Below are positions 10,401 through 13,400 of a stretch of 64,000 bases of DNA, piece after piece. The stretch lies in the NCBI RefSeq assembly GCF_045037415.1, contig NZ_CP173438.1. One strand, given 5' to 3'. Source of the DNA: Escherichia coli. GTDB lineage: Bacteria; Pseudomonadota; Gammaproteobacteria; Enterobacterales; Enterobacteriaceae. Position numbers: made by a program. The first letter of the stretch is position 1. Each line of letters begins with the position of its first letter.

Positions 10401-13400
10401 AACCAGCAAATGCATCAGCAGGATGTTTTCCGGCAGCGCATATCAACACGCGCTCACCGTTAACCTGCGCTTCAATGCCAGACCCGACCAGCGCCCGCTG
10501 TGATTGGGCGGTAGGAATGGCGAGTTCAGCAACCTGTGCTTCGCGCACAATGGCCTGTGCCAGTGGATGCGTCGCGCCTTGCTCGACCGCCGCCGCCAGT
10601 GTCAGCAGTTCAGATTCACTAATACCCGTTGCCGGATGAATCGCGGTAACGCGCGGTTTACCGACGGTCAGCGTACCGGTTTTATCAAACGCCACCTGGG
10701 TAACACGACCCAGCTGCTCCAGCGCCGCGCCGCCTTTAATCAACGCCCCACGACGCGCTGCTGCCGCCAGCCCGGAGGTAATCGCCGCGGGCGTGGAGAT
10801 AACTAAAGCACACGGGCAACCAATCAGCAGCAGCGTCAGCCCTTTATAAATCCACTCCTGCCAGCTGGCGGCAAACAGCAGCGGCGGCACCAGCGTTACC
10901 AGCAGGGCGACCGCCATAATCGCTGGCGTGTAAATACGGCTGAAACGGTCGATAAACCGCTCAATAGGTGCGCGGCGCTCTTCGGCTTCTTCAATCAGTT
11001 TCAGAATCCGGTCAATGGCGCTGGCACCCGGTTCTGACAGCACTTCCAGCGTTACCAGACGGTCTACGCTGGTGGCGCCTGCAGGAACTTTATCGCCCGT
11101 CGCGCGCTCCACCGGAATGGATTCGCCGGTCAGGGCACTTTCATCAAAACTGGCAAACGGTGAGAGCAGTTTACCGTCGGCAGGCAAACGCCCACCTGCC
11201 GCAACTTCAATCACATCGCCAGGCCGCAGGCTGTTTATTGCCACCTCTTCACGCTCACCGTTACTCAGACGCGTGGCGGTTTCTGGCTTCAGCGCCATTA
11301 ACGCGCTGACCCCTTGACGCGCGCGACTGGCGGCCCAGCCTTCCAGTCGTTCACCAATCAAAAACAGCAGCAACACCATCGCAGCTTCAGCCGTTGCGCC
11401 AATAAACAGCGCCCCAGTAGCGGCTACGCTCATTAAGGTTTCAATGGCGAAGTAGCTGCCAGATTTGATCAGCCGTAATGCCTGACGAGCAATTGGGTAC
11501 AGCCCAACCAGCGTGGTCGCGATAAACGCCAGTTGACCAAACGGATGATTGAACTGCTCCAGCCCCCAACTGATTGCCATCATCACGATAAGCGTAATCA
11601 GCGGCAGATTCTCTTTCAGGCGTGATTCTTGTGGTTCGTCGGAGGCCTGTTCATCGCGCAGGGAATAGCCCGCTTTTTGCACCGCAGATTCAACTTGTGC
11701 CCGGATGTCATTGTCGGCATCCACCACCAGTTTTTCGGTGGCGAACAACACCTGTACCTGATTCACGCCTGCAAGCTGGCGCACGGCATTTTCCACTTTG
11801 CGCGCACAGGCGGCGCAGTCCATACCGCTGACTTTCCAGCTATAGCGGGTGCCGGAGACGTTTTCAGAGAGAGTTGGCGTGCTGGAACATGCGCCGTCGC
11901 AGCAACAGTCGTTGGTGTTCTGTACCGTAGTTAGCGGTTTGAACGCAGCAAATTGAGGGGCTTTCTTGCCGTGATTGTCAGGAGTCGACATGGCATCCTC
12001 CGGTTAAGTTTTTTCTCATTAACCGAAGGATACACTCTGGAGTCGACTCCAGAGTCAAGTTTTATCAGAGATACAGCGAGCGGACGATGAGGAAGTGACC
12101 AGCAAAGTAGCAGGCCGCAGCAATCGCGTTATCCGCACGGAAGCGTCGGCGATAGTGACTACCCAGCCAGACAAAGTTACTGATAAACAGCAACGAAGCG
12201 CCAACAAACGCAGAGAGCGCCGGAGCGGTCGGACGGAAGAACCACAGTTCACCTGCCAGCCACACCATCACCAGCGTCATGCCGATAAACGTGCAGATAG
12301 GCCAACGGTACTCTTCCAGGCGCGTCCAGATAATCGCCAGTAACAGCGCGCCCAGAACCAGCAGCACCAGTGGCAGAGGCCAGAAGAAAGAGAGCGTCAT
12401 CTGACTGGCGAAATAGATGGTGTACAGCAGGTGCGAGAGGAAAAACGCGCCGATGGCGTACATCAGACGTTGACGTGGCAACAGGGTTAGCGCATCGCCC
12501 AGCAGTGAGGCACACAGCCCCGCCAGCACCAGATAGCTAATGGCGTCGAACATCGGCGCTTGCCAGGCCAGCAACAGCAGGAGAAGAAGGGTTAACGGTT
12601 TAAACACCCAGCGTTGCCAGGTTGGCCCACGATACGATGCATCCACAGATAGCCATGCGGAAAGACAGACAGCGATAAACGACCAAAGCATCTTAGTTCC
12701 TTGAATTCGTTATTTTTTCGTAAGCGGAATGCCTACGGTCTTGCTTCCAGTTTAGTGGCGAGGGTGGACGGATGACAACACCATAACTGGCAGGGTATGC
12801 TTATTTCCGCATTTTCCGATGAGGGATAAAGATGAGTAAACCACCTCTTTTCTTTATTGTTATCATTGGCTTAATCATCGTCGCCGCATCGTTTCGTTTT
12901 ATGCAACAACGACGGGAAAAAGCTGATAATGATATGGCACCGCTCCAGCAAAAGCTGGTGGTGGTGAGCAACAAGCGGGAAAAACCGATTAACGATCGCC
13001 GTTCGCGCCAGCAGGAAGTGACGCCGGCAGGCACCAGTATGCGCTATGAGGCAAGCTTCAAACCGCAAAGCGGAGGAATGGAGCAGACGTTTCGCCTCGA
13101 CGCCCAGCAGTACCACGCCCTGACAGTGGGCGATAAAGGTACGCTGAGCTATAAAGGAACGCGCTTTGTCAGCTTTGTAGGCGAACAATAAGGTTATTTT
13201 TTAACTTTAAATTTCTTCTGCCAGACCAGCAGTTCAAACACGCCGAAAAGGAAAATCCGCACCTTTTCGGCGGTGGTCATCTGCGGGCCATCTTTCGGTA
13301 AAGTGGATTTCAATAGCGCCAGCTGCATACCATGCATCAGCACGGTAAAAATCAGCGCCACGTTAACGAAAATATTCAGCGGGCGTGGGAAGGGATGCAC

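What the first reader, a model, noticed from the sequence alone, without database searches (positions are those of the whole stretch)
12034..12055. Perfect 22 bp palindrome in zntA promoter (ZntR operator)
actctggagtcgactccagagt is a perfect dyad between zntA and yhhN, fitting a MerR-type operator between unusually spaced promoter elements. It is known biology but a striking sequence feature that validates the zntA call.
Basis: partly seen in the sequence, partly recalled or inferred. Interest (0 to 1): 0.2.

Follow-up and report, generated by a model that had tools for sequence, protein, structure and literature searches.

The report
ZntR operator in zntA promoter
The perfect 22-base palindrome is the textbook binding site of the zinc sensor ZntR, placed inside the unusually wide (20-base) promoter of the E. 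coli zinc-export pump gene zntA; it is real, correctly interpreted and already well known.

Summary
ACTCTGGAGTCGACTCCAGAGT at 12034-12055 is a perfect 22-nt palindrome and the longest in the window. It lies in the 73-nt gap between yhhN (12065-12691, minus strand) and zntA (9793-11991, minus strand).

On the minus strand it sits in a single promoter-like frame: TTGACT (12058-12053), a 20-nt spacer, then TATCCT (12032-12027). The dyad overlaps the last 3 nt of the -35 hexamer and ends 1 nt before the -10.

The 22-mer matches the published ZntR-site consensus letter for letter, and the published E. coli zntA entry gives the same hexamers, spacer and offsets.

The 73-nt region is identical in 5369 of 5425 complete E. 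coli genomes. In at least 120 other genomes that carry the -35 plus box, a TAnnnT hexamer lies exactly 20 nt downstream in 112. A zntA orthologue follows in 91 of 114.

It is known biology and of low interest.

Two side observations:
- A conserved zntA leader hairpin pairs the -10 region with the Shine-Dalgarno sequence and shows some covariation.
- Outside the Enterobacterales, the same box type fronts other MerR-family metal-resistance operons.

The parts
12034..12055 (.). Perfect 22-nt dyad ACTCTGGAGTCGACTCCAGAGT, the ZntR operator
   Evidence: perfect palindrome. Identical to the published ZntR consensus (PMC1526738). Present in at least 120 genomes, and a perfect 22-mer in 45 of 120.
12053..12058 (-). 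-35 hexamer TTGACT of PzntA; its last 3 nt are the first 3 nt of the dyad
   Evidence: Own scan. PMC3431237 states that the PzntA -35 is TTGACT. Supplementary table of PMC1526738.
12033..12052 (-). 20-nt spacer between -35 and -10, 3 nt longer than the 17-nt optimum
   Evidence: A 20-bp spacer is published for PzntA. The same 20-nt distance to a TAnnnT hexamer is seen in 112 of 120 genomes.
12027..12032 (-). -10 hexamer TATCCT of PzntA
   Evidence: The PMC1526738 supplement lists TATccT. High information at the T, A and T positions across 96 unique loci, although the hexamer was not part of the search pattern.
12019..12021 (-). Predicted zntA transcription start, about 7 nt after the -10 (inferred, not verified)
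   Evidence: Inferred from standard sigma-70 geometry. The primary mapping papers were not readable here, and no start-site data turned up in the literature searches.
11993..12033 (-). zntA leader inverted repeat: GTATCCTTCGGTTAA (12033-12019) pairs with TTAACCGGAGGATGC (12007-11993); the right arm includes the Shine-Dalgarno GGAGG (12001-11997)
   Evidence: repeat I1. RNA fold z = -5.27. Across 37 distinct enterobacterial leaders, 86.6% of cells pair against 55.5% or less in slid controls, and 7 pairs show compensatory changes.
9793..11991 (-). zntA, the Zn(II)/Cd(II)/Pb(II) P-type ATPase gene driven by the promoter
   Evidence: ORF, 732 aa; NF033775, 1448.9 bits; RefSeq annotation.
12065..12691 (-). 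yhhN, the upstream neighbour on the same strand; its stop codon TGA (12067-12065) lies 6 nt before the -35
   Evidence: annotated as lysoplasmalogenase.

Best explanation
The dyad is the operator of ZntR, the Zn(II)/Cd(II)/Pb(II)-sensing MerR-family regulator, built into the sigma-70 promoter of zntA. The -35 (TTGACT) and -10 (TATCCT) hexamers are 20 bp apart, so they are too far apart and out of phase for RNA polymerase, and basal transcription is very low. A ZntR dimer binds the two 11-nt half-sites on the spacer. Without metal it slightly represses. With Zn(II) bound it kinks and under-winds the spacer, which brings the two hexamers into the geometry of a 17-bp promoter and switches on the zinc-export pump. 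Shown here: the sequence, its exact placement, identity to the published site, and conservation of the dyad, the 20-nt spacing and the downstream gene. Taken from the literature: ZntR binding, the footprint, and the distortion mechanism.
For: The perfect dyad is at the stated coordinates. The only promoter-like pair in 11900-12200 is TTGACT-20-TATCCT, and it brackets the dyad. The standard 16-18 nt scan finds nothing there, as expected for a MerR-type promoter. The downstream gene is zntA. [quoted passage not shown] PMC3431237 gives the PzntA -35 as TTGACT with a 20-bp spacer, and says the PbrR footprint, which covers -35, spacer and -10, is consistent with the DNase I protection results for ZntR. 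PMC9189660 reports ZntR switching from repressor to activator of PzntA as zinc rises. PMC9909328 describes the distortion mechanism and the need for 19-20 bp spacers. The 73-nt intergenic region is identical in 5369 of 5425 E. coli genomes, including a K-12 derivative, whereas only 913 genomes are 99% or more identical over the 401-nt stretch that adds the flanking coding DNA. Searching 100,044 species genomes for the -35 plus degenerate box gave at least 120 hits, against about 0.5 expected by my own arithmetic. Of these, 112 of 120 have TAnnnT exactly 20 nt downstream although that hexamer was not specified, and 91 of 114 have a zntA orthologue immediately downstream. Conservation is near zero upstream of the -35.
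Against: No binding or expression experiment can be run here, and the two primary papers (Brocklehurst 1999, Outten 1999) are not held, so the footprint is cited second-hand. zntR is not in the window, as expected for an unlinked regulator. The transcription start was not verified. One paper gives the spacer as 19 bp (PMC9189660), which disagrees with the sequence and with the other sources. The same box type also fronts operons of other MerR-family regulators in distant phyla, so the sequence alone does not establish ZntR specificity. The assignment to ZntR rests on the E. coli literature.
Confidence: 0.97

Rival explanations
1. The palindrome is the RNA hairpin of an intrinsic terminator, or a 3'-end stabiliser, for the yhhN transcript. 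yhhN's stop codon lies only 9 nt upstream of the dyad on the same strand.
For: The dyad folds as a 9-bp stem with a 4-nt loop in the minimum-free-energy RNA structure of the region. It begins 9 nt after the yhhN stop codon. The terminator scan reports the hairpin with a T-rich tail, but on the plus strand.
Against: On the yhhN (minus) strand the hairpin is followed by GTGTATCCTTCGG, which is not a U-tract, and the scan calls no minus-strand terminator there. No plus-strand gene ends near it, so the plus-strand call has nothing to terminate. In 13 of 80 evaluable genomes, zntA keeps the box and the -10 hexamer although yhhN is not the immediate upstream gene. A terminator would not explain the conserved -10 hexamer at exactly 20 nt. 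A secondary role as an RNA hairpin in read-through transcripts is not excluded.
Confidence: 0.03
2. It is a chance palindrome with no function, possibly an extension of the SalI-type GTCGAC core.
For: 8 of 200 shuffled windows contain a perfect palindrome at least this long, so length alone is not overwhelming.
Against: It is identical to a published operator. It is invariant in about 99% of E. coli genomes while the flanks vary. It recurs in at least 120 species genomes in a fixed register with the promoter hexamers and upstream of zntA.
Confidence: 0.005
3. The dyad is an operator, but for a different MerR-family paralogue (for example CueR or another metal sensor) rather than ZntR.
For: The same box type is used by other MerR-family regulators in other phyla, in front of MerA-like, ArsP-type and thioredoxin/DsbD-like genes. 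This shows that the box type is not unique to ZntR.
Against: The published CueR site (ACCTTCCC-N5-TGGAAGGT, 19-bp spacer) is different. The E. coli literature assigns this exact site and zntA regulation to ZntR.
Confidence: 0.01

Closest known systems
PzntA / ZntR operator of Escherichia coli K-12 (Brocklehurst et al. 1999; Outten et al. 1999; compiled in PMC1526738)
   Same: The same 22-nt dyad, the same -35 TTGACT, the same 20-bp spacer, the same -10 TATCCT, the same offsets from the zntA ATG, and the same neighbouring genes. The 73-nt intergenic region is 100% identical to a K-12 derivative (H58).
   Different: Nothing in the operator or promoter differs. The window comes from a non-K-12 E. 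coli strain: K-12 is 98.5% identical over the surrounding 401 nt, and all differences fall outside the intergenic region.
PmerT / MerR of Tn501
   Same: A MerR-family operator dyad lies in an over-long spacer of a sigma-70 promoter. The -35 hexamer TTGACT is identical (PMC3431237). It is activated by DNA distortion.
   Different: The spacer is 19 bp rather than 20 bp, the half-site sequence is different, it senses Hg(II), and the regulator gene is adjacent and divergent rather than unlinked.
PcopA / CueR of E. coli
   Same: The same promoter architecture and mechanism, and the target is also a chromosomal P-type ATPase efflux gene.
   Different: 19-bp spacer; dyad ACCTTCCC-N5-TGGAAGGT; it senses monovalent Cu, Ag and Au.
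ZntR-type sites of Yersinia, Photorhabdus and Shewanella (PMC1526738 supplement)
   Same: TTGACT-(20)-TAnnnT with a related dyad upstream of zntA-like genes. My own scan confirmed this for Yersinia, Photorhabdus, Serratia, Xenorhabdus and others.
   Different: Their dyads are imperfect (for example CTGGAGTtGgCTCCAagGT) and their -10 is usually TAGAGT. The perfect symmetry seen in E. coli is therefore not required.

Membership tests
MerR-family (ZntR-type) operator-promoter | [quoted passage not shown] | tested here: met
   The dyad at 12055-12034 lies within TTGACT(12058-12053)...TATCCT(12032-12027). It overlaps the -35 by 3 nt and ends 1 nt before the -10.
MerR-family (ZntR-type) operator-promoter | An over-long spacer of 19-20 bp (20 bp for ZntR) | tested here: met
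   The spacer is 20 nt. The literature gives 20 bp for PzntA, except one paper that says 19. The 20-nt spacing is kept in 112 of 120 genomes.
MerR-family (ZntR-type) operator-promoter | Sequence match to the ZntR site consensus ACTCTGGAGTCGACTCCAGAGT | tested here: met
   22 of 22 positions identical.
MerR-family (ZntR-type) operator-promoter | The regulated gene downstream is the metal-efflux gene zntA | tested here: met
   NF033775 ZntA, 1448.9 bits; the ATG lies 36 nt after the -10. zntA orthologues lie downstream in 91 of 114 related loci.
MerR-family (ZntR-type) operator-promoter | The cognate regulator ZntR is encoded in the genome | not testable with these tools
   tblastn finds no zntR in the 64-kb window. 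The literature states that zntR usually lies apart from zntA. The rest of this genome is not available.
MerR-family (ZntR-type) operator-promoter | Physical binding or footprint by ZntR, and Zn(II)-dependent activation | not testable with these tools
   Published for the identical K-12 sequence. The footprint is cited second-hand in PMC3431237. In vivo repression-to-activation is reported in PMC9189660. The primary papers are not held.
Rho-independent terminator (of yhhN) | A GC-rich hairpin followed by a U-tract on the transcribed strand | tested here: not met
   The hairpin is present, but on the minus strand it is followed by GTGTATCCTTCGG. The scan makes no minus-strand terminator call there.
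Known RNA family (Rfam) covering the zntA leader or the dyad | A match to any Rfam covariance model at or near its gathering score | tested here: not met
   Only two eukaryotic miRNA models match, at 20.4 and 15.5 bits against gathering scores of 80 and 90. These are chance matches.

The most novel reading that the evidence does not exclude
The operator itself is not novel. The most novel reading left open concerns the adjacent zntA leader. A hairpin conserved across Enterobacteriaceae, with compensatory changes, pairs the -10 region with the Shine-Dalgarno sequence. Its 5' arm lies upstream of the predicted PzntA start. It could therefore form only in transcripts reading through from yhhN, which has no terminator. 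Such a hairpin would block zntA translation from ZntR-independent read-through RNA and leave ZntR-initiated mRNA translatable. It would act as a built-in insulator that keeps pump synthesis strictly zinc-dependent. Alternatively, the symmetric CCGGTTAATGA...TCATTAACCGG element may be the DNA site of an unidentified second regulator.
Probability: 0.15. Interest if true: 0.35.

Novelty: already known. Interest (0 to 1): 0.06.

Why it matters
It matters mainly as validation. The dyad confirms the zntA and yhhN gene calls and shows that the first-stage reader can recognise a MerR-type promoter from raw sequence. The biology has been established since 1999: the zinc sensor ZntR turns on the ZntA efflux pump by distorting an over-long promoter spacer. 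PzntA is also widely used in heavy-metal biosensors. Nothing here changes that picture. The side observations would add modest new detail if confirmed. These are a conserved anti-Shine-Dalgarno leader hairpin, and use of the same box by MerR-family operons in Acidobacteria, Gemmatimonadetes and Betaproteobacteria.

Tried and rejected
1. The built-in promoter scan (spacers of 16-18 nt) found no promoter in 11900-12200. This reflects the scan's spacer range, not absence of a promoter: my own scan with spacers of 15-21 nt found exactly one pair.

2. The terminator reading was considered because the scan flagged the dyad plus CAAGTTTTAT on the plus strand. I rejected it because no plus-strand gene ends there, the minus strand has no U-tract, and the dyad stays with zntA where yhhN is absent.

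3. The primary paper of Outten et al. 1999 could not be read. Brocklehurst et al. 1999 is in a subscription journal, and I did not attempt to fetch it.

4. Three literature searches for the mapped zntA transcription start or for yhhN-zntA co-transcription gave nothing usable for E. coli. The sigma-S SELEX peak listed between yhhN and sirA lies inside zntA and is unrelated. A Yersinia pestis paper treats yhhN-zntA as one co-expressed unit with a predicted Fur-like box.

5. An Rfam scan of 11850-12200 at a permissive threshold returned only chance miRNA hits.

6. I looked for zntR in the window and found none.

7. RNAalifold's own consensus for the leader alignment recovers only 6 of my 18 proposed pairs, at -3.5 kcal/mol. 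The hairpin is therefore reported as a side observation, not a finding.

8. The second 'place' per genome is most likely the palindrome matching itself on the opposite strand. This is an inference that I did not check.

Full report
**Observation**

The window at 12034-12055 reads ACTCTGGAGTCGACTCCAGAGT. The repeat finder reports two 11-nt arms, 100% complementary, with no gap (I2), and a script confirms the 22-mer equals its reverse complement. It is the longest perfect palindrome in the 64-kb window; the next longest is 16 nt. Base composition predicts 0.016 such palindromes per window, and 8 of 200 dinucleotide-preserving shuffles reach an 11-nt arm. Length alone is therefore uncommon but not decisive. 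No second copy exists in the window with up to 3 mismatches.

**Local anatomy**

- The ORF at 9793-11991 on the minus strand (732 aa) scores 1448.9 bits against NCBIfam NF033775, 'Zn(II)/Cd(II)/Pb(II) translocating P-type ATPase ZntA', cut-off 1240.
- The ORF at 12065-12691 on the minus strand (208 aa) is annotated yhhN (lysoplasmalogenase) in RefSeq E. coli genomes that match this stretch at 100%.
- The window is E. coli but not K-12. Strain SK1144 and others match at 100%, and K-12 matches at 98.5% over 401 nt.
- The intergenic region is 11992-12064, 73 nt.

Read on the minus strand, the order is:
- yhhN stop TGA (12067-12065);
- 6 nt;
- TTGACT (12058-12053);
- a 20-nt spacer (12052-12033);
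- TATCCT (12032-12027);
- a 35-nt leader with the Shine-Dalgarno GGAGG (12001-11997);
- the ATG at 11991.

The dyad (12055-12034) shares its first three bases with the -35 hexamer and ends one base before the -10. The built-in promoter scan allows only 16-18 nt spacers and finds nothing. My own scan with spacers of 15-21 nt finds this pair as the only promoter-like site in 11900-12200 on either strand.

**Match to the literature**

- Permina et al. [quoted passage not shown] This matches the window 22 of 22.
- Their supplementary table lists E. coli zntA with the dyad at -62 and 'TTGACt-(20)-TATccT' at -68. In the window the same elements start 61 and 67 nt before the A of the ATG, which is the same spacing with a one-base difference in counting.
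- Hobman et al. 2012 (PMC3431237) state that the PzntA -35 is TTGACT and that ZntR's promoter is the exception with a 20-bp spacer. They also say their PbrR footprint, which covers the -35, the spacer dyad and the -10, is consistent with the DNase I protection results for ZntR.
- One paper (PMC9189660) gives the spacer as 19 bp. The sequence and the other sources support 20.
- The primary paper of Outten et al. 1999 is not held.

**Conservation within E. coli**

The 73-nt intergenic region is 99% or more identical, which at this length means identical, in 5369 of 5425 complete genomes. A 401-nt stretch that includes the flanking coding DNA reaches 99% or more in only 913 genomes and is 95-99% in 4503. 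The promoter region is therefore more constrained than the neighbouring coding sequence. The one variant I examined (strain N96) has a single-base deletion in the A-run of the leader loop. Its dyad and both hexamers are intact.

**Conservation beyond E. coli**

I scanned one genome per species (100,044 species) for TTGACTCTGGAGTNNNCTCCANNGT. This pattern has 20 specified bases, and I calculate about 0.5 chance matches in 298 Gb on both strands.

- The -10 hexamer was not part of the pattern, yet 112 of 120 loci have TAnnnT exactly 20 nt after TTGACT, and 118 of 120 have nAnnnT.
- Of 114 loci with enough downstream DNA, 91 have a zntA orthologue (43-96% identity) starting 68-870 nt downstream. 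All 91 are Enterobacterales or MAGs with enterobacterial-type sequence.
- Only 45 of 120 are perfect 22-mers, so the perfect symmetry in E. coli is not required.
- Per-position information is near zero upstream of the -35 and high at the T, A and T of the -10.

This sample was chosen by the operator pattern. It therefore says nothing about how many zntA genes lack the box. It does independently confirm the spacing, the -10 and the gene association.

**Mechanism**

From established knowledge of the MerR family (review PMC9909328; PMC1526738):
- A 19-20 bp spacer places the -10 about 7-10 Å too far from the -35 and rotated 72-108° away, so RNA polymerase cannot engage both.
- The regulator dimer binds the spacer dyad. 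In its metal-bound form it kinks and under-winds the DNA, which restores the geometry of a 17-bp spacer.
- For ZntR specifically, in vivo titration shows repression at low zinc and roughly 10-fold activation at high zinc (PMC9189660).

These mechanistic steps come from the literature and were not tested here.

**Rivals**

*yhhN terminator.* The dyad starts 9 nt after the yhhN stop and folds as a 9-bp hairpin. On the yhhN strand, however, it is followed by GTGTATCCTTCGG, which is not a U-tract. The only terminator-like call is on the plus strand, where no gene ends. Among 80 zntA-linked loci with enough upstream DNA, 67 have yhhN directly upstream and 13 do not, and those 13 keep the box. I reject this rival as the primary function.

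*Chance.* This is excluded by the comparative data.

*A different MerR paralogue.* The published CueR site is different, and the E. coli literature assigns this site to ZntR.

**Side observation 1: leader hairpin**

On the zntA strand, GTATCCTTCGGTTAA (12033-12019) can pair with TTAACCGGAGGATGC (12007-11993). That gives 15 pairs, including 2 G-U pairs, and an 11-nt loop. The left arm contains the -10 hexamer, and the right arm contains the Shine-Dalgarno sequence (I1, region z-score -5.27).

Other Enterobacteriaceae have a longer version, ccggttaATGAgaaaattaTCATtaaccggagg. On an alignment of 37 distinct leaders:
- 86.6% of cells pair, against 27.6-55.5% when the partners are slid by 1-3 columns.
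- 7 of 18 pairs show changes on both sides (24 cells), a count reached by 0 of 500 shuffles.
- The clearest cases are columns 14/36 (U-A in 24 sequences, G-C in 9) and 19/31 (G-C in 28, A-U in 7).

RNAalifold's own consensus keeps only 6 of these pairs, at -3.5 kcal/mol. The structure was also derived from one of the aligned sequences, so support is moderate. No Rfam family covers the region.

If transcription starts the usual ~7 nt after the -10 (an inference), most of the left arm is not in the PzntA transcript. The hairpin could then form only in read-through RNA from yhhN. This suggests, speculatively, an insulator that blocks translation of ZntR-independent transcripts. A DNA-level symmetric protein-binding site is an alternative.

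**Side observation 2: other MerR-family operons**

In 23 loci outside the Enterobacterales, no zntA follows the box. In 20 of them a MerR-family gene (32-43% identical to E. coli ZntR) is detected nearby; in 19 it lies downstream on the same strand, and in one (L104) it lies upstream. Examples include Acidobacteria, Gemmatimonadetes and Nitrospirae MAGs, Ralstonia, Herminiimonas, Pseudomonas turukhanskensis and Alteromonadaceae.

Neighbouring genes encode thioredoxin-like and DsbD-like membrane proteins, an ArsP-type permease with Cys/His-rich segments, a P-type ATPase with YHS and HMBD domains, or a MerA-like reductase with an HMA domain. This -35-plus-box type is therefore shared by a wider set of divalent-metal MerR regulators, some apparently autoregulated. 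[quoted passage not shown]

**Verdict**

The feature is already known and of low interest.

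Noticed in passing
window 11993-12033 (minus strand); also loci L002-L120: The zntA leader contains an inverted repeat that pairs the -10 region (GTATCCTTCGGTTAA) with the Shine-Dalgarno region (TTAACCGGAGGATGC). 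It is conserved and longer in other Enterobacteriaceae, with compensatory changes: 86.6% of cells pair and 7 pairs covary. No Rfam family covers it. Its left arm lies upstream of the predicted transcription start, so it may form only in yhhN read-through RNA, or it may be a DNA-level site.
   Followed up: partly
L001, L018, L020, L023, L027, L032, L042, L047, L049, L058, L066, L067, L069, L071, L073, L078, L091, L113, L114 and others: Outside the Enterobacterales, the same TTGACT plus CTGGAGT-N3-CTCCA box with a 20-nt spacer sits directly upstream of a MerR-family gene (32-43% identical to ZntR). Neighbouring genes encode thioredoxin/DsbD-like proteins, an ArsP-type permease, a P-type ATPase or a MerA-like reductase. 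These look like apparently autoregulated metal-resistance operons that use a ZntR-like operator.
   Followed up: partly
window 11978-11989 (minus strand, zntA codons 1-4): GTCGACTCCTGA, which overlaps the zntA start codon, repeats the right half of the operator (GTCGACTCCAGA) at 11 of 12 positions (I3). In the Enterobacter, Kluyvera and Pseudocitrobacter leaders the match is exact (ATGTCGACTCCAGA), while Citrobacter keeps the amino acids with different codons. It could be an extra half-site, an RNA pairing partner of the dyad (centroid fold), or coincidence.
   Followed up: no
window 12056-12067: The yhhN stop codon is only 6 nt from the zntA -35 hexamer, and no terminator is detectable on the yhhN strand. 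Read-through from yhhN into zntA is therefore plausible. A Yersinia pestis transcriptome paper treats yhhN-zntA as one co-expressed unit with a predicted Fur-like box (PMC2231364).
   Followed up: partly
literature (PMC9189660 against PMC3431237 and PMC1526738): Published spacer lengths for PzntA disagree: 19 bp in PMC9189660, and 20 bp in the other two papers. The sequence gives 20 nt between TTGACT and TATCCT.
   Followed up: yes
window 14141-14154: There is a perfect 14-nt palindrome, GCTATGTACATAGC. It lies in the gap between the minus-strand ORF 13453-14049 and the plus-strand ORF 14199-15695. From memory of the K-12 gene order these are probably rsmD and ftsY, which I did not verify.
   Followed up: no
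window 42882-42897: The second-longest perfect palindrome in the window is the AT-only 16-mer AATAAATATATTTATT. I did not examine its context.
   Followed up: no
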